DNA from: Methanobacteriota archaeon | GTDB taxonomy: Archaea > Thermoplasmatota > Poseidoniia > Poseidoniales > Thalassarchaeaceae | DNA: 50,739 bases | Direction of reading: 5' to 3' | Assembly: GCA_002722595.1 (NCBI GenBank) | Contig: PBMO01000046.1 | Span: forward strand, 1-50,739 | In this document: one piece after another, positions 17,418 through 27,100 of the stretch | Numbering within the stretch: position 1 is the first letter of the stretch | Layout of the letters: the number at the start of each line of letters is the position of its first letter | Program-made: the position numbers and the translations under genes | Notes under the pieces: model-generated | Seen by the model: the letters and a program-made list of their open reading frames with translations, nothing else | Databases searched by the model: none | Told to the model about the DNA's origin: nothing

Positions 17418-19178
17418 ATGTGTGGAATAGCAGGAATCTTCGGACCCAATGGGGACGACTGCTCTACAGTTCACAAAATGGCTAGAATTATTGGACATAG
17501 GGGTCCCAATGGGACGGCGGCTTGGTCTGAGCAGTTCAAGACTGGTGGTGTGAGTTTTGGACACACGCGTCTTTCTATTGTGGATATTGATGGCTCAAAC
17601 CAACCTCTTTTTTCCGACAATGGTTGTGTACTAATTTTCAATGGTGAAATCTACAATCATCGAGAAATTCGAAAAGTAAATTCCAGTTATAGTTTCCGCA
17701 CGAACGGCGATGGTGAGGCGATTTTAGCGGCTTATGCTAATAGGAGTGATGATATTGGATGGGTGCGCGATTTGGATGGAGTATGGGCCTTTGCATTATG
17801 GGATCCACAATTGGAAAGGCTGATTTTGTCAAGGGATAGATTTGGTGTCAAACCCTTACTGCGTAATTGTACAGAACAAGGGAATTTACTATTTGGTTCA
17901 GAAGCGAAATGTCTCAGGTTACACCCTGAATATTCTCCAGAATTGGATATTCGTGCCCTCATTGGTCGTATTGCATTTGAATACTCATTAGATGACACAA
18001 CATTGTTTGAAGATGTCCACTCTATAAGTCCCGGTACGATAGAAACATGGGATATTTCGAATGGAAAAGCCAAGCTTCAAAATCGGTCTATTTGGGCATC
18101 TGATTTCCCAATTCCATATGGAAAATGGTCGCCGAAGACACATGCAGAGTCCTTACTTGAGTCACTAACTTCTGCTGTTGCAGACCGATTGATGTCTGAT
18201 GTACCCCTCGGGATTATTTTGAGCGGGGGGCTTGATTCGGCTCTCATTGCTGCAATATCTAATGAGGCGTCTCAACGTACAGGATATCCCCTTCCTGCAT
18301 GCTGGACAGTCGCAGAATCTGAGGATAATCCTGATTGGATTGCCGCAGAGAATGTATGCCAGAGTTTAGAACTTCAACACCATCAACATTTAATCAGTGA
18401 GAATGCCTTCGAAAATTCCCTCCCAAAACTTGGCTGGCATGGCGAGGACCTTGATGTCACAGTACTCTTTTTCCAACCCCTTTTTGAAAAGATGTCCCAA
18501 TCAGTAAAAGTTGGTCTTTGTGGACAGGGGGCCGATGAACTTCATGCCGGTTATCCGCGTTACAAAAATTTGAGGAGTCATTGTGAGTTGATATCGAAGC
18601 GTCTCGACTCTTGCAAGCATCCATTTTCAGACCAAATATTGAGCGAGAATTTCATCAGCCCTGGCTGGCGGCAGGGACACAATCCCGATCTGGTGTTCGC
18701 AGATTTGGGGTCTACTTTGAATTATGAGTTGAATAATGGACAATTGACCAACTTCCAGTTGCGATTAGTAGATAGACACAGTATGGCGCATGGTCTTGAA
18801 GTAAGGGTGCCTTTTTTGGGGGAAACCCATGTAACTGCCTCTAGTCAAATACCAACTACATGGAAGTTATCAAGTGGTTCAGAAAAGTTGGGTCTAAGGG
18901 AGGCTGCACGTTTGACTAAACTTCCAATTGATATAGTGAATCGTCCTAAATTGCCTGCAGGGCGAGCAACTTCTCCAACACTAATTGATAATCTCCTTGA
19001 TGAACTGAAAGGTCACGCTCAAGAATATTCAAATGATATTCCGATGGTATCAAAGATGTTCAATGGTCAACCCGAAATATCAATTGGACTCCGATTATTC
19101 CGATCTTTACACTTGACTGATGGGGGCGTAGGTCGAGAATGTAAGGACTTACTTACACTACTAGAGGATGTGGATTAA
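17418..19178 (+). CDS. asnB: Asparagine synthetase B-like glutamine amidotransferase/adenylating enzyme
   Basis: The N-terminal nucleophile MCGIAGIFG (Ntn class II GATase) and the PP-loop SGGLDSALIAA are both present. Confidence 0.88.
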   Translation: MCGIAGIFGPNGDDCSTVHKMARIIGHRGPNGTAAWSEQFKTGGVSFGHTRLSIVDIDGSNQPLFSDNGCVLIFNGEIYNHREIRKVNSSYSFRTNGDGEAILAAYANRSDDIGWVRDLDGVWAFALWDPQLERLILSRDRFGVKPLLRNCTEQGNLLFGSEAKCLRLHPEYSPELDIRALIGRIAFEYSLDDTTLFEDVHSISPGTIETWDISNGKAKLQNRSIWASDFPIPYGKWSPKTHAESLLESLTSAVADRLMSDVPLGIILSGGLDSALIAAISNEASQRTGYPLPACWTVAESEDNPDWIAAENVCQSLELQHHQHLISENAFENSLPKLGWHGEDLDVTVLFFQPLFEKMSQSVKVGLCGQGADELHAGYPRYKNLRSHCELISKRLDSCKHPFSDQILSENFISPGWRQGHNPDLVFADLGSTLNYELNNGQLTNFQLRLVDRHSMAHGLEVRVPFLGETHVTASSQIPTTWKLSSGSEKLGLREAARLTKLPIDIVNRPKLPAGRATSPTLIDNLLDELKGHAQEYSNDIPMVSKMFNGQPEISIGLRLFRSLHLTDGGVGRECKDLLTLLEDVD

Positions 19179-20311
19179 TGGAATATAGTGGGCCTAATTT
19201 CCTTTCAAAATTGGAATCCACAATTGTGCAATGTGAGGATTCTTTGCGTAATTGGTTCGCTGGACACCGATCTAATTTGACGATGCCAATTTATGGGTCA
19301 GTAGATATTCGTGATTCACATTGGAAGGTTGCAGCTGTAGATGCCAATCAGTACCCTGCAGGATTCAATAACCTCAGCCAATCTAGTATTGGAGAGCATC
19401 TTAGTGATGCCATCGGCGATGTCAAACATGTCCATATTTGGCCGGAAAAACATACACGTAATCAACCCTACTTGGATAATATATCTGCATTATCAAAAAT
19501 ACTTGAAAGACAAGGATACAAGGTGACTAATGGGATAATTGAATTAGAGTCATCAGGCCCAATTTCCATTAACGGTTCTGTGCCTGATTTGGTCTTACTG
19601 AACAATGATCTCACGGATGGTCCAATCGGTACACTTGGTGTACCGGTCCTCCCCCCTCAAGAAATGGGGTGGTATCAACGGAAAAAATCCTCGCATTTTG
19701 AGGCATTACAACCTTTTATTGATGAAGCAGCAGAAATATTAGGAGTGGATCCCTGGTTATTGAGTACAAGTTGGTTTGTTTCCGAGGAGAAGTGCCTGGA
19801 AAAGGAAACTTGTCGAACACTTTTAGCTGCAGAAGTGGATAATTTTCTCCATTCCATTCAAGAAAAGTATGATGATTTGGGTGTACTGGGTAAGCCTAAA
19901 ATTTTCATGAAGAATAATTCGGGCACCTATGGCCTTGGCATTCTTGAAATCAATTCTGGAGAGCAACTTCTCAATCTTTCAAATCGGAAAATGAATAAAC
20001 TCACGTATGGAAAAGGAGGTTCTGATGCTGAGGATTTCCTCCTCCAGGAAGGGGTCCCAACTGCACTTTTTTGGGACCAGATGGTTGTTGAACCCGTAGC
20101 ATACTGTGCAAATGGCCGCGTTGGTGGTTGGTTTTATCGTGCTAATTCGAGGAAAGGGCCGATGGAAAATTTGAACAGTCCTTCCTCGTTATTCATTCCA
20201 CCATCTGATATATCTGATACTCTGATTTCATCAAGGCGTAATCATTGGCATACACTTGTCGCTGAGATTTCTATGCTTGGAATGGCCAGTGAAACAGATT
20301 CATTCCTCTGA
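19178..20311 (+). CDS. Putative glutamate-cysteine ligase-like enzyme (GshA, T. ferrooxidans/PF08886-type); function uncertain
   Basis: IYGSVDIRDSHWKVAAVDANQYPAGFNNL matches my memory of the N-terminal signature of that family. Its start overlaps the asnB-like stop (TAATG). Confidence 0.45.
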   Translation: MEYSGPNFLSKLESTIVQCEDSLRNWFAGHRSNLTMPIYGSVDIRDSHWKVAAVDANQYPAGFNNLSQSSIGEHLSDAIGDVKHVHIWPEKHTRNQPYLDNISALSKILERQGYKVTNGIIELESSGPISINGSVPDLVLLNNDLTDGPIGTLGVPVLPPQEMGWYQRKKSSHFEALQPFIDEAAEILGVDPWLLSTSWFVSEEKCLEKETCRTLLAAEVDNFLHSIQEKYDDLGVLGKPKIFMKNNSGTYGLGILEINSGEQLLNLSNRKMNKLTYGKGGSDAEDFLLQEGVPTALFWDQMVVEPVAYCANGRVGGWFYRANSRKGPMENLNSPSSLFIPPSDISDTLISSRRNHWHTLVAEISMLGMASETDSFL

Positions 20312-20590
20312 ATCATTACCCTGCATCTTTGGTGGTTCATCCATTCCAGTGATCTCATAATTCGAAGGGAAAAGGGCAACAACTACACCTGCAATTCCAG
20401 TTACCAGTGCCCACCAGAACATCTGGTATTTTATCGCCATTTCGAGGGCAATTGCGACTAGGGCAAGTCCACCTAGGTTGGATATCCAGACAAGTCGCTT
20501 GAAAGTCGAAAGTCCAACTCCCTTAGTCGTCCCAGATATAGATTCTGGGCCGAATTCAGCACCAAAGCGAATCGGCTTTTCACTCGCCAT
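20300..20590 (-). CDS. Small membrane protein (2 TM), last gene of the Rieske/cyt b cluster
   Basis: 96 aa, with two hydrophobic helices, co-directional with a 34-nt gap. Confidence 0.5.
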   Translation of the reverse strand: MASEKPIRFGAEFGPESISGTTKGVGLSTFKRLVWISNLGGLALVAIALEMAIKYQMFWWALVTGIAGVVVALFPSNYEITGMDEPPKMQGNDSEE

Positions 20591-20624: not shown

Positions 20625-20957
20625 TCAACGGTCAATCATGAGTATTGCATCAGTAGGACATGAAAGGACACATAGTCGGCAACCCGTACAATCATCTCGG
20701 AGAATCCTCGCTTTGCGATTATTTTCTATATCAAGGATTGGACTCCTTAAAGGAACATCATACAACTCAATAGCATTATCATCACACACTAATGTGCATT
20801 GATCGCAACCGATGCACAAATCCTCTTTGACGAATGCGACAGTACCGGGTCCCCCCTTGACTTTTAGCCGGGCTTCACCACGCATTTTGTTTAGTGCGAG
20901 TCTTATTCTCTCCGCATCTTCCGCCCGACGTTTTGCCAACTCGTCGAGTGAGGTCAT
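20625..20957 (-). CDS. 2x[4Fe-4S] ferredoxin-type protein
   Basis: Two CxxCxxCxxxCP-type motifs: CIGCDQCTLVCDDNA and CTGCRLCVLSCPTDA. Confidence 0.85.
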   Translation of the reverse strand: MTSLDELAKRRAEDAERIRLALNKMRGEARLKVKGGPGTVAFVKEDLCIGCDQCTLVCDDNAIELYDVPLRSPILDIENNRKARILRDDCTGCRLCVLSCPTDAILMIDR

Positions 20958-20991: not shown

Positions 20992-21240
20992 CTAAGCAAC
21001 GAATGTCAACCATAGTGGATGTAATGAAATTAAAACGGCAACAGCAAATCCGCAAAGAGTCCCTTTTGCCATGTTAGGGCGGTTATATCCAAGAGCAATT
21101 AGGATTAGGAAAAATCCGATTATCAAATCACAGACCATGCCAATCCACGCTGCTTTCCAAGATAATAAAACTGCAGTGGATATTGTTGCTAACGGGCCTA
21201 TGGAAAAACCACCGAGCCAATCTCGGTCAATGGTGCGCAT
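20992..21240 (-). CDS. Small membrane protein (about 3 TM)
   Basis: 82-aa hydrophobic ORF, 5 nt downstream of the fusion gene. Confidence 0.5.
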   Translation of the reverse strand: MRTIDRDWLGGFSIGPLATISTAVLLSWKAAWIGMVCDLIIGFFLILIALGYNRPNMAKGTLCGFAVAVLISLHPLWLTFVA

Positions 21241-21245
21241 TCAAT

Positions 21246-24062
21246 TCACGCCTGTTTCTTAGCTTCTACTTGGCGTGCTAGGAATGACACAACATCGAGA
21301 ATCTCAAAGTCGTGCTTTGGATCACCCTCAAACTTTAGGCATTCAAAATGCGAGACACACTTGGGACAAGATGTTAGCATTATATCTGCACCAGTTGCAC
21401 GAACTTCATCAAATCTCTGTACTCTAAGAGCTCGACTTTCTTCATTACAACCCATCATGCTCGAAACACCACAACAAAGTGCATCTTCACCATGATGCTC
21501 CATTTCGACCAGATCGACACCTTCGACAGAGGAAACAAGGTTTCTCGGTTCATCATAAATTTCCATTTGGCGCCCAAGCCTACAAGGGTCATGGTATGTC
21601 ACAGTAACGTCCTCTTCTGATTTCAATCCCATGTCGAATCCATTTTCTATGAGGAATTCTGTGGTGTGCATTACCTTGACACCCTCTAATTCGTAATCTT
21701 TAGCAAAGGTCCGGAAGCATTCAGCACAACTTGAGACCAAAGTATCAATTCCACTTGCTTGAATCTTCTTTTGGTTGTATGCCTTTAGTTTCTCAAAGAC
21801 CTCATCCATACCTTGCCATTTTTGGTCATGTCCACAGCACTTGAGGAAATCCCTTCCAAGGTAGGATACATCCGTGCCCATCTCTTCAAACAATGTAAAT
21901 GCCGAAGTAGTAGCATCACCAAGATTCATGCTGCCTTCATTCACATGGCTGAAGATCATTTCTTGATCGATGTAGTCGACGCAACCCGGATAGTATCCAA
22001 TACTTGAGTCGATAGGATAATCCTCAACAGCCACAAATTCAGAATCATATTCTTCTTCAGCCTCTGCTGCAAGTACAGATTGTAGGACGGAATGTGGTAT
22101 GTTTGAAGCGGGTGGGCCACCTACTACCAACGCCCTTCGCATGTCTACATATGAATCGTAGTCGACCAATTGTGGGCATGCATTCGTACAAGCAGTACAT
22201 GTCAGGCATGAAAATAGTGGCACTCCATCGTCTTCATTATTCCAACTGTTGTAGATGATGTTCAGTTTATCACCTGCGTTGAATAAGCGCACAGGACATG
22301 CATCGTCACAGAGGTCACAGCCGTAACACTTGTTCATCTCGTACTCGTATCCTCGTGCCATACTCCGCATCATCATGAATACAACAGCGCCAACACCAAG
22401 ACATGGTACAAAGAGTGAATAAATCAGTTTCGCATCTAGTGCTTTTGGATTTTTGTGGTAAGTGGGATTTTCACTCATATACGATGAAAGGCTGGCAATA
22501 TCCATCCCAATTCCAGATAACGTCAGATTCGTAGTATCTGCTCTATTTATTGCTTGACCATTATCGCCAATAAGTAATGGTTGGTGGCCAATGACATTTA
22601 CCCCTGCAAATATCGAATATGATGAGTTAATTCCGGTCCATGTTGTTGAGAAATCAACATTATAATCACCGGGTGCAAGCTTAAGCACACCACTTTCACA
22701 GGGTGTATCGAATACTACGTCGTTGTTAGAGTTAGTAACCGTGAAGACACTATCTACAAGCGTACCAATTCCCCATTCGCTTGAGCGCTGCGAGCAGGAA
22801 ATATCGACATACACGTCTCCGATTCCAAAGTTCTCAATGCTTATGTCCCAATTACCTGCTATTGACACAGTCTCATCGACATCATTACCCATTGGATTCC
22901 AGTCCCATGTGATGCCATTTCTTCGAGTTTGATTGTCGAAATGGTTGTTCGCTCCTGCGAAATCGATCAGACGTTCTTGCACGGGTTGGTATATGCCCCA
23001 ATTCATGAACTGACTCGCTGTAACAAGACAGAAATCGGATCTACTATACGCATCTTCCCCTTCAAATTTCGAACTCATCCAAACCTCATTTGCCATACTT
23101 TCCTCGTATGTCAAACAGTCTGCATGAATGTCTTCCCAATGATGGCCCTCGTTTATGGCTACAAGTGTATCTCCTGGTTGTGATCTCAACTCTTCCAATG
23201 CACTAATTTCATCCATTGCTCCGAGTCCACCTTGGTCCCAGAAACCATTGTCATAAACTGGCCATGTTACTGTACAGAGTAATATGGTCACGATTAGTGT
23301 TCCCATGGATACCTGTTTGCCAAGTTTGGGCGAGGTTCTTGCGCCAATTGATTTCACTAAGAACCAACGAATTCCCATATACAATGCAACCCATATGAAA
23401 ATTCCAGTTAATACCCACGGTATCGTGTTGAATATATCAGCAATCCAAGGTTCCCTTACGCCACAATTGAGCCCTGCATGAGAGTTCAATTGACAGAAAT
23501 CAGTTCTATTTTTACCATATAATTCAAGGAAGATATTAATTGAAAATACAGAGATAAACCAGACGTGAGCAAGGTATATCGCTCCAGCTGTAGCAAACCA
23601 TGGATCTTCAACACCACGCTTTTCACGGCCACCTAGGAATGGCGGGAGTGCTAGGATTGTTACTGGTAGTCCAGTAATTGCCGCACCCCACCATGCTGCG
23701 TTCCATGAGATGACAGGCTGTCCAAAGAATGCTCCGATTGGACCTGCAGGAATATCGAATTGTGGTAAATACTCGCCCCATCGGAGGTAACCATAACTGA
23801 ATAGAACGTACCAGTCAGGGAATACGAATCCGGCTTGTGCATATGGATCAGCTGCACCATGCAGAGGGGGTGGAATTAACCAAGAATAGAAACAAAGAAC
23901 CGCGACCATTGCGGCAAATATAATTCCGTCACGCAGAACTTCATGTGGCCAAAATGCGTGACCAACAAATACTCGCCTTCGCTCTTTGTCAGCACTTTGG
24001 AGGCTTTCTTTTTCACGGACATATGTATCCGCGATTTTGCCAAGACTTTCTATTAAGCCCAT
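21246..24062 (-). CDS. Fusion protein: cytochrome b C-terminal half (subunit IV/PetD-like) + extra TMs + ~330-aa extracytoplasmic domain + TM + HdrD-like Fe-S/CCG module
   Basis: The N-terminal half has FWPHEVLRD ... PDWYVLFSYGYLRW (the PEWY-type motif) and several TM helices. The C-terminal 360 aa (21249-22328) carry CYGCDLCDDACP, CLTCTACTNACP and two CCG-type regions (FLKCCGHDQ ... CAEC; HDPCRLG ... ALCCGVSS ... CPKC). The start is set at ATG 24062, preceded by GGAGGG. The listed ORF extends to 24110 and would overlap cytochrome b. Confidence 0.85.
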   Translation of the reverse strand: MGLIESLGKIADTYVREKESLQSADKERRRVFVGHAFWPHEVLRDGIIFAAMVAVLCFYSWLIPPPLHGAADPYAQAGFVFPDWYVLFSYGYLRWGEYLPQFDIPAGPIGAFFGQPVISWNAAWWGAAITGLPVTILALPPFLGGREKRGVEDPWFATAGAIYLAHVWFISVFSINIFLELYGKNRTDFCQLNSHAGLNCGVREPWIADIFNTIPWVLTGIFIWVALYMGIRWFLVKSIGARTSPKLGKQVSMGTLIVTILLCTVTWPVYDNGFWDQGGLGAMDEISALEELRSQPGDTLVAINEGHHWEDIHADCLTYEESMANEVWMSSKFEGEDAYSRSDFCLVTASQFMNWGIYQPVQERLIDFAGANNHFDNQTRRNGITWDWNPMGNDVDETVSIAGNWDISIENFGIGDVYVDISCSQRSSEWGIGTLVDSVFTVTNSNNDVVFDTPCESGVLKLAPGDYNVDFSTTWTGINSSYSIFAGVNVIGHQPLLIGDNGQAINRADTTNLTLSGIGMDIASLSSYMSENPTYHKNPKALDAKLIYSLFVPCLGVGAVVFMMMRSMARGYEYEMNKCYGCDLCDDACPVRLFNAGDKLNIIYNSWNNEDDGVPLFSCLTCTACTNACPQLVDYDSYVDMRRALVVGGPPASNIPHSVLQSVLAAEAEEEYDSEFVAVEDYPIDSSIGYYPGCVDYIDQEMIFSHVNEGSMNLGDATTSAFTLFEEMGTDVSYLGRDFLKCCGHDQKWQGMDEVFEKLKAYNQKKIQASGIDTLVSSCAECFRTFAKDYELEGVKVMHTTEFLIENGFDMGLKSEEDVTVTYHDPCRLGRQMEIYDEPRNLVSSVEGVDLVEMEHHGEDALCCGVSSMMGCNEESRALRVQRFDEVRATGADIMLTSCPKCVSHFECLKFEGDPKHDFEILDVVSFLARQVEAKKQA

Positions 24063-24075
24063 TCTATATCCCTCC

Positions 24076-24939
24076 TCAATGCGGCTCAGCGATGCCTTGT
24101 ACCCAAACAATAAACAAGTGAATCAAAATCAATGTGGTGACAATTACTGGCAAGATAAATACGTGCAGGAAATACATACGAGTCACCGCTTGGTAGGTCA
24201 AACTAGTTCCTCCGAACATAGCATTTGCAACCCAAGGCCCGATTAGTGGTGTACTATTAGCCATGTTTATTCCAATTGTAGCTGCACCAAATGCCAAACT
24301 ATCCCATGGCAATAGATATCCAGAATAACCGAAAAATATGACGAAGAACATCAATGCAACTCCAATCAACCAATTTAATTCACGAGGGTTTCTGTATGCT
24401 CCTGTGAAATATACTCGGCACATGTGTAAGAATACAGCAGCGACCATGAAGTGAGTAGTCCAGTGGTGGATTGATCGAATGATATATCCAAATGGCAATT
24501 GTGTCATGATGAATTCCATGCTGGAGTAGGCCGGTGTAGGGTCACCCTGTCCGCCAGGGACATAGTAGATTCCAAGAATTGTACCTGTAATTACGAGAAT
24601 GATGAATGCAAGGAAGGATATCCCGCCCAAGCAGTAGAGAGGATACCAATACCAGATGATGCGGAGTTTGTATTTTTCAGCATGTGTTAGAGGCATTTGG
24701 CGATGCATGCTGTGGTAAGCATCGCGTGACATAGCCCAGTAATCTTGGACCCTAAATCTTGTATCAAGCCATGAAAATGCCCACAGGAAAATTTTCTCAA
24801 CTAATCCTAGTTTGCCTGTTGACTCGACTGCTCGCAGAATTTCCTTACGCGGCATTTCCTCATTTTCCTTTCGAAGTGTGAAAGCAACGATTACCGTAAT
24901 AATCGCAATAAAGAGTCCTAATAACCAAACTTGCAACAT
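24076..24939 (-). CDS. Cytochrome b, N-terminal four-helix half (b6-type)
   Basis: Helix B reads RSIH-x13-HMCR and helix D reads FLH-x14-HLF (b6/Firmicute-type spacing). PRELNWLIG and GYLLPW are also present. Confidence 0.9.
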   Translation of the reverse strand: MLQVWLLGLFIAIITVIVAFTLRKENEEMPRKEILRAVESTGKLGLVEKIFLWAFSWLDTRFRVQDYWAMSRDAYHSMHRQMPLTHAEKYKLRIIWYWYPLYCLGGISFLAFIILVITGTILGIYYVPGGQGDPTPAYSSMEFIMTQLPFGYIIRSIHHWTTHFMVAAVFLHMCRVYFTGAYRNPRELNWLIGVALMFFVIFFGYSGYLLPWDSLAFGAATIGINMANSTPLIGPWVANAMFGGTSLTYQAVTRMYFLHVFILPVIVTTLILIHLFIVWVQGIAEPH

Positions 24940-24951
24940 TTTTCTTTCACC

Positions 24952-25827
24952 TCAATCACAGAACGTGTACCACTCCTGGTATGTACTCAATCCCTTGATT
25001 ATATCATCCTCAACAACGAATGGGATTAATGGCAGGCCAACTGGAGCAGGGCCACCAGTTAAGCGCACTCCAAAGTAATCAAATGTGGAACCATTGCTCC
25101 GATTCCTGTTCCGATTTTTCTCCAACATTGTTGGGTCATAGCGTGAGGAGTGACAGATACAGAACAATTTGTTTCCACCTGCATCTACACCACCTGGTAG
25201 CCATGTATCTGCCGTGAAATCATTAGCCACAAGTTGCCAACCAGGTATACAGCATAGGTGTGGGCATCGACTGAACATCAAGAGAATGTTGTCATGTGGC
25301 TGTAGGGCAAGGTCAGGTGTCCCATCTTCCAAAACGACATCAAATATTTCTCTTCCATGGCCAATGAATGCTCCTCCTGAGTCATATCCTTCACCATATT
25401 GGATCCTAGGCAAACCTTCTGCGGGAGGCTTCGATTCATTTTCTTCATGTGGTATGTATACGATATTGACTGGCATACCACTCCAAACACCCTGTGCTCC
25501 AGCCATTCCGGTATTGGATTTTGCAGCCTCAGCCTCTAGATGTGATTTCTGCATTTCTTGTTCATGCATTGCACCATACCACACAGCGTCTTCTTGTCCT
25601 TTTGGCACCCAATATTTCACACCCGTGTCTTCGCCGCCAGTACTTGCTTGACCCATTAGGAATGAAGCAAATCCAACGGACCCCAAACTTGCTAATGCAA
25701 TGGCGCCACCTGCTGCATTGAATGTGTATTTCATGAACAGTCTCCTGTCCAATACAGTAGAAACTCCTTCTGCATTATCATGGGTGGTTTTACCTGGTGC
25801 AGGTCTGAGTCTGAACTGTCTACCCAT
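24952..25827 (-). CDS. Rieske [2Fe-2S] protein with Tat-type signal anchor
   Basis: Box I is CPHLCC and box II is CICHSSRY. The N-terminus has DRRLFMK followed by a hydrophobic helix. Confidence 0.88.
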   Translation of the reverse strand: MGRQFRLRPAPGKTTHDNAEGVSTVLDRRLFMKYTFNAAGGAIALASLGSVGFASFLMGQASTGGEDTGVKYWVPKGQEDAVWYGAMHEQEMQKSHLEAEAAKSNTGMAGAQGVWSGMPVNIVYIPHEENESKPPAEGLPRIQYGEGYDSGGAFIGHGREIFDVVLEDGTPDLALQPHDNILLMFSRCPHLCCIPGWQLVANDFTADTWLPGGVDAGGNKLFCICHSSRYDPTMLEKNRNRNRSNGSTFDYFGVRLTGGPAPVGLPLIPFVVEDDIIKGLSTYQEWYTFCD

Positions 25828-25829
25828 GA

Positions 25830-26279
25830 TTACACCTCATATTTTTTCCAGCTCTCTGGGTCTTTTGCTGGAATGAATTTATTCCTTCTATGCTTGACTA
25901 TCAATGTATCAGGCATTACCCATTTCAAGTACACGATACCCATTATAATCAAAGTTGTTAGCATCATTGCTAAGAAGAATGATAGTATCTGTTGATCCCA
26001 ATAATTGAATAATCCATAGGAAAGCCCTCCTGCCCAATAGATAGTCCAGAAGAGACCCCATGCAAACACAATGGTGACTAACCAAGATGTTGCACTTGGA
26101 GATATACTAGATCGCACAATAGTCCCTGGTTTCGGCGCATTGAATACCCCATGGTCTACTGCTGTGATGTATTCTTCCTCAGTTAGGTTGACGCCATCTA
26201 AGGCCGACCTCGCATCTTCGATGCTAACTTCGCCAGACTTGACCTGCTTGAGAAGACGCATTACAATGTCTTCATTCAT
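25830..26279 (-). CDS. Membrane protein (soluble N-domain + about 3 TM), unknown function, in the Rieske/cyt b cluster
   Basis: 149-aa ORF that overlaps the upstream gene by 4 nt and ends 2 nt before the Rieske start. Confidence 0.55.
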   Translation of the reverse strand: MNEDIVMRLLKQVKSGEVSIEDARSALDGVNLTEEEYITAVDHGVFNAPKPGTIVRSSISPSATSWLVTIVFAWGLFWTIYWAGGLSYGLFNYWDQQILSFFLAMMLTTLIIMGIVYLKWVMPDTLIVKHRRNKFIPAKDPESWKKYEV

Positions 26280-27100
26280 AGTTGGTCACCCCTTCTTAGA
26301 TGCTTCATTCGGAGTCGGATTAGATTGGATCTCCCTTCATAGTGTCGGCTAAAGCCATAGCGTAAGAAAAATCCACAGAATAGGATGACTAGTACAACAG
26401 CCCCAAAGCCAAGAAGTCCAAGCCAGTGTGCTCTGAATGGAGCTCCCATGTGGTGCAAATCGACATGTCCGCCGTCCGCTTCTGGTGGTTTCACATCTCC
26501 ATTCCCTGCGAAAATTGTTCGTGTATTTCCATTATCTTCGCCCTCTCCAAGTGTGAAGGACAAACGGTTCCACGCATCACCGGTAGGTGCGCCGTCGCCA
26601 TTTACGCTATTCCCTGCGAGCCAAAATGTCACATCTCCAGTCCCTGATTCAGGAGCTATCCAAACAATATCCCATGCACGATCGCTTGGGTTGCTACCCT
26701 CTTCCGTATGAGTTAATGTAGTGCCATCATCTCCGTTTTGAACCATTGACTCATAACCAGCATCACCCGTTAACTCTCCTGCCTCTACCCTCATTGAGAA
26801 TCCAGCAGAGGACACGCCTCCTATTTCTGGCCCACCAATAATTTGTATTTTCAGAGAGTAACTTGTACCTGATGAGTACTGGTATGGGACGTCAACAATC
26901 ATCACAGTCACTGTGTCGTCGGGCGCCACAGCATTTCCAGAGTGACAGGTACAACCATTCTTGGCTACATCCGTGCCACCTTCGGCTTCATCTCCATAGA
27001 TTCCACCAGGTCTACCTTGACTTGAGCCGGCGACCAGAATCACAATCAAAACTCCAGTAAGGACGCGTAATAGTCGCTTATTGGATGCCGCCATAGCCAA
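26276..27100 (-). CDS. Exported beta-rich protein with C-terminal TM anchor; first gene of the Rieske/cyt b cluster
   Basis: Signal-like N-terminus LLRVLTGVLIVILVAGSS. There is a GCTCHSG motif, a His-rich juxtamembrane stretch HVDLHHMGAPFRAH, and a C-terminal TM WLGLLGFGAVVLVILFCGFFL. Confidence 0.6.
   Translation of the reverse strand: MAMAASNKRLLRVLTGVLIVILVAGSSQGRPGGIYGDEAEGGTDVAKNGCTCHSGNAVAPDDTVTVMIVDVPYQYSSGTSYSLKIQIIGGPEIGGVSSAGFSMRVEAGELTGDAGYESMVQNGDDGTTLTHTEEGSNPSDRAWDIVWIAPESGTGDVTFWLAGNSVNGDGAPTGDAWNRLSFTLGEGEDNGNTRTIFAGNGDVKPPEADGGHVDLHHMGAPFRAHWLGLLGFGAVVLVILFCGFFLRYGFSRHYEGRSNLIRLRMKHLRRGDQL

What the first reader, a model, noticed from the sequence alone, without database searches (positions are those of the whole stretch)
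21246..24062. Cytochrome b subunit-IV half fused, through an extracytoplasmic domain, to a cytoplasmic HdrD-like Fe-S/CCG module
One uninterrupted ORF carries several distinct parts.
- The C-terminal half of cytochrome b is present (FWPHEVLRD, PDWYVLFSYGYLRW, about 4-5 TM helices).
- A hydrophilic domain of about 330 aa follows.
- One more TM follows (LIYSLFVPCLGVGAVVFMMM).
- The last 360 aa (21249-22328) carry two ferredoxin-type motifs (CYGCDLCDDACP, CLTCTACTNACP) and two CCG-type Cys-rich regions (KCCGHDQ, LCCGVSS), as in HdrD/DsrK/GlcF/SdhE-type proteins.
Counting helices from the known cytochrome b topology puts the 330-aa domain outside the cell and the HdrD-like module in the cytoplasm. 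Canonical bc1/b6f complexes return the low-potential electron to quinone at the Qi site. Here the b-haem chain appears hard-wired to a cytoplasmic Fe-S/CCG module, the type that handles disulfides or quinones in Hdr/Dsr/Sdh systems. That would make a Rieske/cyt b complex with a different low-potential exit. I do not know of a described example.
Basis: partly seen in the sequence, partly recalled or inferred. Interest (0 to 1): 0.85.

Follow-up and report, generated by a model that had tools for sequence, protein, structure and literature searches.

The report
Complex III subunit carrying an iron-sulfur arm
In abundant marine archaea (Marine Group II), one membrane subunit of the respiratory Rieske/cytochrome b complex is permanently fused to a cytoplasmic chain of iron-sulfur clusters, which probably lets the complex exchange electrons directly with the cell interior; nobody has tested this.

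Summary
One ORF (21246-24062, minus strand, 938 aa) has four parts:
- a subunit-IV / cytochrome b C-terminal domain with the Qo motif PDWY;
- two further transmembrane helices flanking an outside beta-sandwich domain of about 275 aa;
- two ferredoxin-type [4Fe-4S] motifs;
- two complete CCG motifs.

It lies directly downstream of Rieske and cytochrome b6 genes. More than 100 full-length orthologues from independent assemblies rule out an assembly artefact.

New here: the fusion is the most elaborate form of a wider archaeal family.
- Short relatives (543-790 aa) have PF00032 + Fer4 + CCG and no outside insert.
- Marine Group III has the same cluster with the CCG part as a separate gene.
- One Methanosarcinales MAG carries an F420-type FrhB head instead.
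- Cytoplasmic neighbours are ferredoxin, polyferredoxin, flavodoxin-ferredoxin or HdrABC/MvhD.

The nearest solved homologue is mycobacterial EtfD, an electron-input wire. Direction is inferred, not shown.

Prior literature mentions hdrD-like and rnfB-like genes next to complex III, and bacterial cyt b::FeS fusions, only in passing. Verdict: real, uncharacterised, a new variant of a known kind.

The parts
26276..27100 (-). First gene of the cluster: 274-aa signal-peptide protein with a C-terminal TM anchor and a 'choice-of-anchor V' (Reeler-like) domain. Candidate outside partner of the Rieske protein.
   Evidence: NCBIfam NF041895 E 2e-27, 96 bits against a 42-bit cut-off. No Pfam hit. Same position in MGII and MGIII clusters. 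Conserved G-C-x-C-H, GGF, [ST]H and NxVNG motifs. The role is inferred from position only.
25830..26279 (-). 149-aa membrane protein, DUF7318-like. Small subunit conserved in these archaeal Rieske/cyt b clusters.
   Evidence: PF24002 E 9e-5, below cut-off. Orthologues sit at the same position in 66 ORFs of related loci. The L057 copy passes the Pfam cut-off.
24952..25827 (-). Rieske [2Fe-2S] protein (291 aa) with a twin-arginine signal (DRRLFMK).
   Evidence: Boxes CPHLCC and CICHSSRYD. TIGR01416 E 7e-9, below cut-off. No Pfam or PDB sequence hit. Orthologues in relatives hit PF00355.
24076..24939 (-). Four-helix cytochrome b6-type subunit (287 aa) with an N-terminal extension of about 100 aa that includes one extra TM.
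   Evidence: PF00033 E 3e-41. PDB cyt b6 E 2e-41. All four haem-ligand His align, and Cys35 of b6 (haem cn/ci attachment) is conserved as C103 in LYCLGG.
23343..24062 (-). Fusion protein residues 1-240: subunit IV / cytochrome b C-terminal domain. TM helices at about 44-66, 125-146, 155-183 and 207-237, with the Qo motif PDWY at 82-85.
   Evidence: Relatives pass PF00032.
22428..23315 (-). Fusion residues 250-545: fifth TM (250-270) and the extracytoplasmic domain (271-545). The domain is acidic and has 4 conserved Cys. Its core is a beta-sandwich. Specific to Marine Group II.
   Evidence: Hydropathy and charge counts. Conserved Cys 316/345/423/455. AF2 pLDDT 78-93 for residues 290-535. Foldseek finds GOLD / collagen-binding / CBM6-like folds, E about 1e-4. 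Absent from short relatives.
22365..22427 (-). Fusion residues 546-566: sixth TM, which returns the chain to the cytoplasm.
   Evidence: Hydropathy 2.2. Followed by RSMARGYEYEMNK, the junction conserved in all fused relatives.
22170..22340 (-). Fusion residues 575-631: HdrC-like ferredoxin domain with two CX2CX2CX3CP motifs (2 x [4Fe-4S]). It starts 13 residues after the last TM.
   Evidence: Fer4_8/9/10. All 8 Cys are invariant. HdrC hits with the family profile, E 3e-9.
21345..21995 (-). Fusion residues 690-906: two CCG domains (HdrB-like), each with the full five-Cys pattern (C694, C742, C743, C779, C782 and C827, C863, C864, C899, C902).
   Evidence: PF02754 E 8e-24, two stretches. All 10 Cys are invariant in 25 MGII sequences. 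EtfD 9ojn E 1e-22 with the single sequence and 1e-37 with the profile; HdrB 2e-8.
20992..21240 (-). 82-aa hydrophobic protein between the fusion and ferredoxin genes.
   Evidence: Orthologues in L001-L003 (E 5e-11 to 6e-12), but there on the strand opposite to the fusion gene. Membership of the complex is uncertain.
20625..20957 (-). 110-aa 2 x [4Fe-4S] ferredoxin-like protein (RnfB-like). Likely cytoplasmic partner or subunit of the Fe-S arm.
   Evidence: Fer4_21 E 3e-14. TIGR01944 rnfB E 9e-11, below cut-off. Position conserved in MGII. Replaced at the same position by longer ferredoxin, polyferredoxin or flavodoxin-ferredoxin proteins in MGIII and Thermoplasmata.
20300..20590 (-). 96-aa protein with one TM. 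Last conserved gene of the cluster.
   Evidence: Orthologues follow the ferredoxin gene in MGII (E 1e-29 to 9e-31) and, weakly, in MGIII.

Best explanation
What it is (high confidence, about 0.9): the subunit-IV component of the Marine Group II (Poseidoniales) Rieske/cytochrome b6 complex. Its C-terminus is extended into a cytoplasmic HdrD/EtfD-like arm holding two cubane [4Fe-4S] clusters and two CCG-type clusters. The chain first makes an excursion outside the cell (one TM out, a beta-sandwich domain, one TM back).

How it most likely works (inferred, about 0.45-0.5): the arm, together with the adjacent 110-aa 2 x [4Fe-4S] ferredoxin-like protein, forms an electron wire of up to six clusters. 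The wire docks on the cytoplasmic face of cytochrome b6 next to haem bH and the probable haem ci. Electrons from a low-potential cytoplasmic donor enter through the arm and reduce quinone at the Qi pocket. The most plausible donor is reduced ferredoxin from 2-oxoacid oxidoreductases; ETF or a thiol is possible. The quinol is then oxidised at Qo by the normal Rieske route.

On this reading the complex is both a donor:quinone reductase and a quinol oxidase. It resembles EtfD, and it resembles the ferredoxin-to-haem-cn route proposed for cyclic flow in b6f.

Shown: domain content, conservation, gene order, the family of fused and split relatives, and homology to EtfD/HdrBC. Inferred: topology, cofactor occupancy, docking on haem bH/ci, direction of flow, and the identity of the donor.
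For: Identity:
- Pfam CCG and Fer4 hits.
- All 18 cluster Cys are invariant in MGII.
- The PDWY / subunit-IV register with b6f structures.
- hhalign 99.9% to PF00032-positive relatives.
- Gene order anchorV - DUF7318 - Rieske - cyt b6 - fusion - ferredoxin is conserved in MGII and MGIII.
- It is the only subunit-IV-like gene in the cluster.

Topology:
- Six hydropathy peaks; basic residues in the predicted inside loops.
- An acidic, Cys-paired outside domain and outside loop.
- Short relatives have four TMs followed at once by the ferredoxin motif.

Wire next to the membrane:
- The junction GYEYxLNxCYxCxxCxxxCP lies about 10-15 residues after the last TM in all relatives.
- In EtfD the equivalent [4Fe-4S] D4 sits 7 A from haem b.

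Entry direction:
- EtfD is by far the closest solved homologue (E 1e-37 against 1e-8 to 1e-9 for HdrB/C). It carries electrons from cytoplasm to quinone.
- A Methanosarcinales relative carries an FrhB/FpoF-type F420 head on the same subunit-IV + 2FeS scaffold.
- MGIII's partner is a flavodoxin + 2[4Fe-4S] protein.
- The second Cys of CCG motif 1 is replaced in orthologues (MGIII C-S, others C-V or C-T), as in EtfD, where that site is a non-catalytic linear [3Fe-4S]. Disulfide chemistry is therefore not the family's common function.
- The MGII Rieske box II is S-Y / S-F, the mid/high-potential type (rule from PMC3509893). That makes uphill exit to low-potential clusters unfavourable.
- The haem-ci Cys is retained where the arm is present.
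- Diamond et al. 2022 proposed ferredoxin entry for a related cluster.
Against: - No experiment exists for any member. The organisms are uncultured.
- In MGII itself both CCG motifs keep the full catalytic-type five-Cys pattern of HdrB/HdrD. The EtfD-specific His is absent (CAEC, not CPHC). A thiol/disulfide reaction cannot be excluded.
- The classical HdrDE and DsrMK systems run the other way, from quinol through b haems to the HdrD-like subunit.
- Several anaerobic relatives are followed by HdrA, HdrBC and MvhD genes. These are compatible with either direction.
- The MGII quinone and all cluster potentials are unknown. The Qo motif is PDWY, which Kao & Hunte associate with menaquinone and low-potential systems, so the thermodynamic argument is soft.
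- The physical contact between the first [4Fe-4S] and haem bH/ci was not modelled. The AF2 model was poor outside the beta-sandwich domain.
- In the L001/L003 lineages a small gene on the opposite strand separates the fusion gene from the ferredoxin gene. Co-transcription of the ferredoxin is therefore not guaranteed.
Confidence: 0.5

Rival explanations
1. Low-potential exit. Quinol oxidation at Qo is bifurcated. One electron goes to Rieske and on to oxygen. The other crosses via haems bL/bH and leaves through the Fe-S/CCG arm to reduce a cytoplasmic acceptor instead of, or besides, quinone at Qi. The acceptor could be a disulfide, ferredoxin or the 110-aa ferredoxin-like protein. This would be a Rieske-type analogue of HdrDE/DsrMK, or of the NAD(P)-reducing Rieske/cyt b complexes proposed for anammox bacteria.
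For: - HdrD-type architecture with both five-Cys CCG motifs intact and invariant in MGII.
- HdrC, HdrB, HdrA and MvhD genes directly follow the fusion in L004. HdrA-like genes follow it in L008, L009, L012 and L017.
- Those anaerobic relatives have low-potential G-F type Rieske motifs. There a Qo semiquinone could be reducing enough.
- In HdrDE and DsrMK, electrons flow from quinol through b haems to the HdrD-like subunit (established knowledge).
Against: - In aerobic MGII the Rieske is of the S-Y / S-F type.
- Electron transfer from the outside face to the inside face works against the membrane potential, so little driving force is left for disulfides or ferredoxin (inference).
- The Qi-side features are retained: the haem-ci Cys and the WPxE segment of subunit IV.
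- The bridging Cys of CCG motif 1 is dispensable in orthologues.
- The nearest solved homologue is an input wire.
- The FrhB-headed variant argues for donor heads.
Confidence: 0.2
2. Membrane-anchored but electronically independent dehydrogenase. The HdrD-like module uses the subunit-IV helices only as an anchor. It delivers electrons to pool quinone at its own membrane-surface site, as proposed for CCG subunits of type-E succinate dehydrogenase, GlpC or GlcF. There would be no electron transfer to haem bH/ci.
For: - CCG proteins serve as peripheral quinone-reducing anchors in several dehydrogenases (established knowledge).
- NCBIfam similarity to TfrB, LdhH, GlpC and GlcF, all below their cut-offs.
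- MGIII has the CCG part as a separate polypeptide.
Against: - The link is specifically to subunit IV of Rieske/cyt b clusters, in every lineage found, and never to another anchor.
- The ferredoxin domain starts within about 13 residues of the last helix, which places it over the cyt b6/subunit-IV cytoplasmic face.
- No dehydrogenase catalytic subunit (flavoprotein) is encoded in the MGII cluster.
Confidence: 0.15
3. Redox-balancing or regulatory valve. The arm works reversibly and equilibrates the low-potential chain of the complex with the cytoplasmic ferredoxin/thiol pool. It would act as a safety valve against over-reduction of b haems and ROS in a sunlit, proteorhodopsin-bearing aerobe. 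It would not be a main catabolic route.
For: - Universal in MGII, in a core-genome region.
- Fully coordinated clusters are retained in an aerobe.
- A glutamate-cysteine ligase gene is adjacent in the window and in L003.
Against: - GshA adjacency is not conserved in L001/L002.
- No sensor or regulator domains are present.
- A six-cluster wire is an expensive device for regulation alone.
- Nothing specific supports this over net electron entry.
Confidence: 0.1
4. Assembly or annotation artefact that joins a petD-like gene to an hdrD-like gene.
For: - Marine Group III and some Thermoplasmata encode the CCG part as a separate gene.
- Many database entries are fragments.
Against: - More than 100 full-length orthologues of 923-969 aa come from independent projects, including polished long contigs.
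- The junction sequence is invariant.
- The split in MGIII falls after the ferredoxin domain, not at the subunit-IV / Fe-S junction.
Confidence: 0.01

Closest known systems
Cytochrome b6f / Firmicute-type (b6c) Rieske/cyt b complexes with split cytochrome b and haem ci
   Same: - Gene order Rieske - four-helix cyt b6 - subunit IV.
- All four haem-ligand His, and the CxGG cysteine that binds haem cn/ci.
- Subunit-IV hallmarks WPx[DE]xL ... ADPFA ... P[DE]WY, in register with PDB subunit IV.
   Different: - Subunit IV has extra helices, an outside beta-sandwich domain and a 360-aa cytoplasmic Fe-S/CCG arm.
- No cytochrome f or c1 gene; a 'choice-of-anchor V' protein is encoded instead.
- PF00032 does not score the MGII sequence directly.
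Mycobacterial EtfD (Rv0338c homologue, PDB 9ojn)
   Same: - Best solved match to the Fe-S/CCG module (E 1e-22 with the single sequence, 1e-37 with the profile).
- Same order: TM domain, then 2 x [4Fe-4S], then 2 x CCG.
- The Fe-S domain follows the last TM immediately.
- It forms a wire from cytoplasm to a membrane b haem and quinone.
   Different: - EtfD's membrane part is a five-helix NarI/HdrE-like single-haem domain, not subunit IV of a Rieske/cyt b complex.
- EtfD has C-T in CCG motif 1 (linear [3Fe-4S]) and a His ligand (CPHC). The MGII protein has C-C and CAEC.
HdrDE, DsrMK, HmeCD and TmcBC: HdrD-like subunits on dihaem cytochromes b
   Same: - HdrD architecture (HdrC-like ferredoxin domain plus HdrB-like double CCG) with complete Cys patterns.
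- Cytoplasmic location on a membrane b-cytochrome.
   Different: - The partner cytochrome b is of the NarI type, without Rieske or a Qo site.
- DsrK, TmcB, GlpC, GlcF, TfrB and LdhH models all score far below their NCBIfam cut-offs.
- The MGII host is an aerobe without CoM/CoB or Dsr.
Bacterial 'PDWF-FeS clade' of cytochrome b (Kao & Hunte 2014, PMC4122944)
   Same: Cytochrome b with a Qo-type motif, fused to cytoplasmic non-Rieske Fe-S domains (4Fe-4S plus MvhD-like, or ferredoxin plus flavin oxidoreductase).
   Different: - Full-length bacterial cyt b.
- No Rieske gene in the cluster.
- No CCG domains.
- Only noted in a phylogenetic survey.
Angelarchaeales complex III locus with hdrD-like and rnfB-like genes (Diamond et al. 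2022, PMC9038741); the 'MGII-specific complex III' and orphan RnfB (Tully 2019, PMC6336850)
   Same: - The same kind of cluster in Thermoplasmatota.
- The authors suggested ferredoxin entry into complex III.
- The MGII 'RnfB' is very probably the 110-aa ferredoxin gene of this cluster (inference).
   Different: - One-sentence remarks.
- The fusion to subunit IV, the family of fused/split/FrhB variants and the outside domain were not described. Nothing was tested.
Anammox Rieske/cyt b complexes with NAD(P) oxidoreductase subunits
   Same: The idea that a Rieske/cyt b complex has a cytoplasmic redox module on its low-potential side.
   Different: - Different module (FAD/NAD(P) flavoprotein, not HdrD-like). 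Bacterial. Also hypothetical.
- This comparison rests on my own knowledge and was not checked here.

Membership tests
Cytochrome b C-terminal domain / b6f subunit IV (PF00032) | Qo motif P[ED]W[YF] in the loop after the first helix | tested here: met
   PDWY at residues 82-85, invariant in 25 MGII sequences. Aligned to PEWY of PDB subunit IV.
Cytochrome b C-terminal domain / b6f subunit IV (PF00032) | Sequence match to the Pfam model at its gathering score | tested here: inconclusive
   No hit for the window protein, even at E<=10. Relatives reached by a profile of the window domain score 29.5-48.7 bits for five fused proteins (P0211, P0229, P0234, P0256, P0292), against a 20.7-bit cut-off. 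P0206 just passes at 22.5 bits and P0243 has no hit. hhalign between the two groups gives 99.9% probability, E 4e-34.
Cytochrome b C-terminal domain / b6f subunit IV (PF00032) | Encoded directly after a four-helix cytochrome b6 and a Rieske gene | tested here: met
   Conserved.
Cytochrome b C-terminal domain / b6f subunit IV (PF00032) | N-terminus inside, helices E-F-G, with the Qo loop outside | tested here: inconclusive
   Hydropathy and charge distribution agree. No dedicated topology predictor or usable 3D model of this part was available.
HdrD-type Fe-S proteins (ferredoxin domain + two CCG domains, PF02754) | Two CCG domains, each CXnCCXnCXXC | tested here: met
   C694...C742C743...C779xxC782 and C827...C863C864...C899xxC902. 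PF02754 E 8e-24, two stretches.
HdrD-type Fe-S proteins (ferredoxin domain + two CCG domains, PF02754) | Two CX2CX2CX3CP motifs N-terminal to the CCG domains | tested here: met
   Residues 579-590 and 619-630. Fer4_8/9/10 above cut-off. HdrC and HdrB both hit with the family profile, in that order along the chain.
HdrD-type Fe-S proteins (ferredoxin domain + two CCG domains, PF02754) | Heterodisulfide (or other disulfide) reductase activity | not testable with these tools
   Needs enzyme assays. The variable second Cys of motif 1 in orthologues argues against this as the family-wide function.
Named HdrD-like equivalogs (TfrB, LdhH, GlpC, GlcF, DsrK, TmcB) | Score at or above the NCBIfam curated cut-off | tested here: not met
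   The best is TfrB at 110.5 bits against a 385-bit cut-off. All others are lower.
EtfD (mycobacterial ETF:menaquinone oxidoreductase) | Homologous soluble Fe-S/CCG region directly after the TM domain | tested here: met
   E 1e-22 over residues 615-903. E 1e-37 with the profile.
EtfD (mycobacterial ETF:menaquinone oxidoreductase) | Five-helix HdrE/NarI-like haem-b membrane domain | tested here: not met
   The membrane part is subunit-IV type, with no haem ligands expected.
EtfD (mycobacterial ETF:menaquinone oxidoreductase) | C-T in CCG motif 1 and a His in CPHC (linear [3Fe-4S] and His-ligated noncubane cluster) | tested here: not met
   The window has KCCGHDQ and SCAECF. Some relatives have C-S, C-V or C-T.
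b6-type cytochrome b with haem ci (neighbour gene 24076-24939) | Four haem-ligand His and the CxGG cysteine in helix A | tested here: met
   Alignment to PDB cyt b6, E 2e-41. LYCLGG matches FYCLGG. Actual haem ci attachment is not testable here.
Rieske [2Fe-2S] protein (neighbour gene 24952-25827) | CxHxxC ... CxCHxxxY boxes and export signal | tested here: met
   CPHLCC, CICHSSRYD and DRRLFMK. However, PF00355 is not detected and TIGR01416 is below its cut-off.

The most novel reading that the evidence does not exclude
The Poseidoniales complex is a quinol-driven electron-bifurcating machine. Oxidation of quinol at Qo by the oxygen-linked Rieske branch pushes the second electron through haems b and the Fe-S/CCG arm, where it makes reduced ferredoxin or reduces a cellular disulfide. 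This would give an aerobic, proteorhodopsin-bearing photoheterotroph a membrane source of low-potential reductant. It would also make this the first Rieske/cyt b complex with a dedicated non-quinone low-potential exit.
Probability: 0.15. Interest if true: 0.92.

Novelty: new variant of a known kind. Interest (0 to 1): 0.7.

Why it matters
**Ecological reach.** Marine Group II archaea are among the most abundant heterotrophs of the surface ocean. Their 'complex III' has been called non-canonical without explanation, and their lone 'RnfB' has been a puzzle. This locus explains both. The missing subunit IV is inside a protein annotated only as '(Fe-S)-binding protein', and the RnfB-like ferredoxin belongs to the same cluster.

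**A natural test case.** The family shows that archaeal Rieske/cyt b complexes can carry interchangeable cytoplasmic heads (HdrD-like, split CCG, FrhB-like) on subunit IV, with ferredoxin, flavodoxin-ferredoxin or HdrABC partners. That gives a directly testable natural case for two old questions:
- what haem ci is for, and whether ferredoxin can feed the Qi side of b6f-type complexes;
- whether bc complexes descend from membrane-anchored dehydrogenases.

**Consequence for models.** Whichever direction the arm runs, it changes how the energy budget of these archaea should be modelled.

Tried and rejected
- **Pfam on the N-terminal 277 aa and on the middle 268 aa alone.** No hits, even at E<=10. 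Homology had to be shown through profiles and relatives.
- **Word-indexed homologue search with the N-terminal domain.** It returned only MGII fragments. The exhaustive representative search was needed.
- **Full-length AF2 with 25 MGII sequences.** Mean pLDDT was 46.6 and only the outside domain was usable. No statement could be made about docking of the arm.
- **A redox role for the outside domain.** Rejected. It is a beta-sandwich of GOLD/CBM/collagen-binding type and has no metal or haem motifs. Its four conserved Cys fit disulfides.
- **Assembly artefact.** Rejected.
- **GshA adjacency as a clue to a gamma-glutamylcysteine disulfide substrate.** It is present in the window and in L003 but not in L001/L002, and the genes are convergent, not co-transcribed. 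Kept only as a weak note.
- **Methanoperedens Rieske/cyt b literature and the reviews by Baymann 2012 and Dibrova 2017.** No description of the fusion.
- **Bacterial-labelled loci L025 and L043.** They carry typical MGIII-type genes on short contigs. I treat them as probable mis-binning, unverified.

Full report
**1. Observation**

The minus strand of the window carries one open frame, 21246..24110 (954 aa from a TTG). The ATG at 24062 gives 938 aa. This 938-aa product is identical to a deposited MAG protein annotated '(Fe-S)-binding protein [Thermoplasmatota]', and all orthologues start at the same MG(L/M)I motif.

Domain detection gave the following.
- Pfam finds two CCG stretches (E 8e-24) and a two-cluster ferredoxin domain at 575-631.
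- Both CCG motifs have the full five cysteines: C694/C742/C743/C779/C782 and C827/C863/C864/C899/C902.
- Both ferredoxin motifs are CX2CX2CX3CP.
- All 18 cysteines are invariant in 25 MGII sequences.

The N-terminal domain gets no Pfam hit on its own. Three further lines establish what it is.
- A profile of the domain puts b6f subunit IV as the top three PDB hits, in exact register (WPxxxL ... ADPFA ... P[DE]WY).
- An exhaustive profile search finds distant relatives, and six of the seven CCG-bearing ones scanned pass PF00032's gathering score.
- hhalign between the two groups gives 99.9% probability and E 4e-34 over helices E-G.

Hydropathy shows TM helices at about 44-66, 125-146, 155-183, 207-237 and 250-270. 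A hydrophilic stretch follows (271-545), then a last TM at 546-566.

**2. Topology (inferred)**

Basic residues cluster in the N-terminus, in the 147-154 and 238-249 loops, and after TM6. The Qo loop, the 184-206 loop (two invariant Cys) and the 271-545 domain (41 D/E against 12 K/R, four conserved Cys) are on the other side.

The AF2 model was poor overall (pLDDT 46.6) but confident for residues 290-535. Foldseek matches that part to small beta-sandwich binding domains (GOLD, collagen-binding, CBM6, CUB; E about 1e-4). No redox fold or cofactor motif is seen there.

**3. Not an artefact**

More than 100 full-length orthologues (923-969 aa, 67-84% identity) come from NCBI, ENA, JGI, Tara and Logan data. 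These include polished contigs of 0.43 and 1.5 Mb, with the same gene order.

**4. The cluster**

Reading along the minus strand, the genes are:
- a signal-anchored 'choice-of-anchor V' protein (26276-27100);
- a DUF7318-like membrane protein (25830-26279);
- a Tat-signal Rieske protein (24952-25827; CPHLCC, CICHSSRYD);
- a four-helix cytochrome b6 (24076-24939);
- the fusion;
- an 82-aa hydrophobic protein;
- a 110-aa 2 x [4Fe-4S] ferredoxin whose best NCBIfam hit is RnfB;
- a 96-aa single-TM protein.

The b6 subunit keeps all four haem-ligand histidines. It also keeps the cysteine (LYCLGG) that binds haem cn/ci in b6f.

The rest of the window is ordinary core chromosome: RNA polymerase B/A'/A'', FtsZ, GshA, AsnB, GDH and methylmalonyl-CoA pathway genes.

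**5. Relatives change the picture**

The profile search gave only 121 hits at E<=1e-3 among 1.84 billion representatives. A scan of species-representative genomes showed that the MGII protein is the most elaborate member of an archaeal family. My own ORF and phmmer survey of 86 loci, with Pfam checks, gives four grades.

(a) Subunit IV alone. Found in Halobacteriales and Thermoplasmatales.

(b) Subunit IV + 2 x [4Fe-4S], with the CCG protein as the next gene.
- Marine Group III has anchorV - DUF7318 - Rieske - b6 - suIV/Fd (371-378 aa) - CCG (292-298 aa, E about 1e-72 to the window's C-terminus) - ferredoxin-type protein.
- MAGs labelled Methanomassiliicoccales show the same split.

(c) Subunit IV + Fd + 2 x CCG in one chain of 543-790 aa.
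- These have four TMs, and the ferredoxin motif follows about 15 residues after the last helix.
- They occur in several Thermoplasmata, a Bathyarchaeia MAG and an unclassified archaeon.

(d) MGII. As in (c), with two more TMs and the outside domain inserted.

The junction GYEYxLNxCYxCxxCxxxCP is shared by all of these. The link between subunit IV and the Fe-S domain therefore arose once.

The cytoplasmic neighbours vary but are always electron-transfer proteins:
- a 110-aa ferredoxin in MGII;
- a flavodoxin + 2[4Fe-4S] protein or a three-motif ferredoxin in MGIII;
- a polyferredoxin in L006;
- HdrC-, HdrB-, HdrA-like and MvhD/FlpD genes in L004;
- HdrA-like genes in L008, L009, L012 and L017.

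In one Methanosarcinales MAG (L057), the same subunit-IV + two-Fe-S scaffold ends in FrhB_FdhB_N/C domains. That is the F420-interacting module of FpoF/FrhB.

The split lies between the ferredoxin and CCG parts, not between subunit IV and the Fe-S part.

**6. Mechanism**

Among solved structures, the module is far closest to mycobacterial EtfD (9ojn):
- E 1e-22 with the single sequence;
- E 1e-37 with a family profile, against 3e-9 for HdrC and 2e-8 for HdrB.

In EtfD the clusters form a wire: CCG1 - CCG2 - [4Fe-4S] - [4Fe-4S] - haem b (7 A) - menaquinone. It is thought to carry electrons from cytoplasmic ETF to the quinone pool.

The MGII protein has the same order of domains after its last TM. 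The cubane clusters should therefore sit at the membrane surface, over the cytoplasmic face of b6 and subunit IV. That is where haem bH and (if present) haem ci lie. This contact is inferred, not modelled.

I favour electron entry, for six reasons.
- (i) The EtfD precedent.
- (ii) The FrhB-headed variant. FpoF/FqoF-type heads are donor modules.
- (iii) The flavodoxin-ferredoxin and ferredoxin partners.
- (iv) The second Cys of CCG motif 1 is replaced in orthologous complexes: KCSGHDQ in MGIII, KCVG and KCTG elsewhere. In EtfD the same change gives a non-catalytic linear [3Fe-4S] cluster. Disulfide chemistry is therefore not the common function.
- (v) The MGII Rieske box II is S-Y or S-F. By the published rule of thumb this is the 200-350 mV type (legend quoted). 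That leaves little driving force to push the second electron, against the membrane potential, onto low-potential clusters.
- (vi) The haem-ci cysteine and the WPxE segment of subunit IV are retained, so a Qi pocket is probably still there. The CxGG-type motif tracks the arm only loosely: most MGIII loci that carry the arm have YSLGG, and the stand-alone-subunit-IV loci L014, L054 and L056 have YALGG.

Diamond et al. reached the same suggestion in one sentence for a related soil lineage.

On this reading, reduced ferredoxin (archaeal 2-oxoacid oxidoreductases) or another donor reduces quinone at Qi. The quinol is then oxidised at Qo.

Points against this reading:
- MGII itself keeps the complete HdrB/HdrD-type cysteine pattern and lacks EtfD's special His.
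- HdrDE and DsrMK run from quinol to the HdrD-like subunit.
- HdrABC/MvhD neighbours in anaerobic relatives fit either direction.
- The quinone and all cluster potentials are unknown, and PDWY is usually linked to menaquinone systems.

**7. Comparison with what is known**

The core is a b6f/Firmicute-type Rieske/cyt b complex. The arm is an HdrD-type module closest to EtfD. It is not a member of any named HdrD-like equivalog: TfrB, LdhH, GlpC, GlcF, DsrK and TmcB all score far below their cut-offs. It is not an EtfD either, because the membrane domain differs and so do the cluster ligands.

Earlier literature contains only passing remarks.
- Tully 2019: MGII have cyt b and Rieske but not a canonical bc1, plus an orphan RnfB.
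- Diamond 2022: hdrD-like and rnfB-like genes next to complex III.
- Kao & Hunte 2014: a bacterial 'PDWF-FeS' clade of cyt b fused to 4Fe-4S/MvhD or ferredoxin/flavin domains, without Rieske.

Searches for a description of the subunit IV-HdrD fusion found nothing. The two phylogenomic reviews I read do not mention it.

**8. Verdict**

The feature is real, conserved and uncharacterised. The 'hard-wiring' idea is strengthened by the comparative data. The proposed direction is the less likely one, and the claim of no precedent needs softening.

I class it as a new variant of a known kind. Rieske/cyt b complexes with accessory modules are known, and HdrD-like arms on membrane cytochromes are known. 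The family-level pattern of interchangeable cytoplasmic heads on subunit IV is the most interesting outcome.

Noticed in passing
window 26276-27100 (-): The first gene of the cluster encodes a signal-anchored 'choice-of-anchor V' / Reeler-like protein. Its G-C-x-C-H motif (not a CxxCH haem-c site), GGF, [ST]H and NxVNG motifs are conserved between MGII and MGIII, and it has a C-terminal TM. It sits where cytochrome c1/f or a blue copper protein would be expected, so it may be an unrecognised outside redox partner.
   Followed up: partly
window 20992-21240 (-); L001 10785-11060 (-); L003 10939-11328 (-): The 82-aa hydrophobic gene between the fusion and ferredoxin genes has clear orthologues (E 5e-11 to 6e-12). 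In L001/L003 they lie on the strand opposite to the fusion gene. In the window it is on the same strand. This is a small-gene inversion inside the cluster between MGII lineages.
   Followed up: partly
L057 7965-9560 (+) (Methanosarcinales MAG CAZCCY010000057.1): Subunit IV (PF00032) + two Fe-S motifs + FrhB_FdhB_N/C in one 531-aa protein, downstream of cyt c - DUF7318 - Rieske - cyt b. It appears to be an F420-linked head on a Rieske/cyt b complex. I found no description of it.
   Followed up: partly
L004 4729-14876 (GCA_964347835.1, unclassified archaeon): Gene order is multihaem cytochrome c - small ORF - Rieske - cyt b - 543-aa subunit IV/HdrD fusion - HdrC-like - HdrB-like - 1010-aa HdrA-like - MvhD/FlpD - multihaem cytochrome. 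A complete Hdr-type flavin/Fe-S module is attached to a Rieske/cyt b cluster.
   Followed up: partly
L035 9936-10925 (+) (Marine Group III CG-Epi1): The protein at the position of the MGII 110-aa ferredoxin is a Flavodoxin_1 + 2 x [4Fe-4S] fusion of 329 aa.
   Followed up: no
L006 898-3174, L012 788-3613, L013 1169-3802, L017 5222-7837: In several Thermoplasmata the cytochrome b gene itself is 750-940 aa. In L006 the extension carries a Big_5 domain. Large extracytoplasmic decorations of these complexes are therefore common and can sit on different subunits.
   Followed up: no
window 24076-24939 (-): The cyt b6 has an N-terminal extension of about 100 aa with an extra TM helix. It keeps the haem-ci cysteine (LYCLGG). 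Most MGIII orthologues have YSLGG instead.
   Followed up: partly
window 17418-20311 (+): An AsnB-like amidotransferase and a GshA-type glutamate-cysteine ligase overlap by one base and converge on the cluster. The same pair is adjacent in L003 but not in L001/L002. This suggests MGII make gamma-glutamylcysteine-type thiols.
   Followed up: partly
window 24062-24110: The fusion ORF can be extended 16 codons upstream to a TTG that overlaps the end of the b6 gene. Orthologue alignments support the ATG at 24062.
   Followed up: yes
L025 (labelled Nitrosomonadaceae) and L043 (labelled Chloroflexota): These short contigs carry typical Marine Group III versions of the cluster genes. They are probably mis-binned archaeal contigs in bacterial MAGs.
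   Followed up: no
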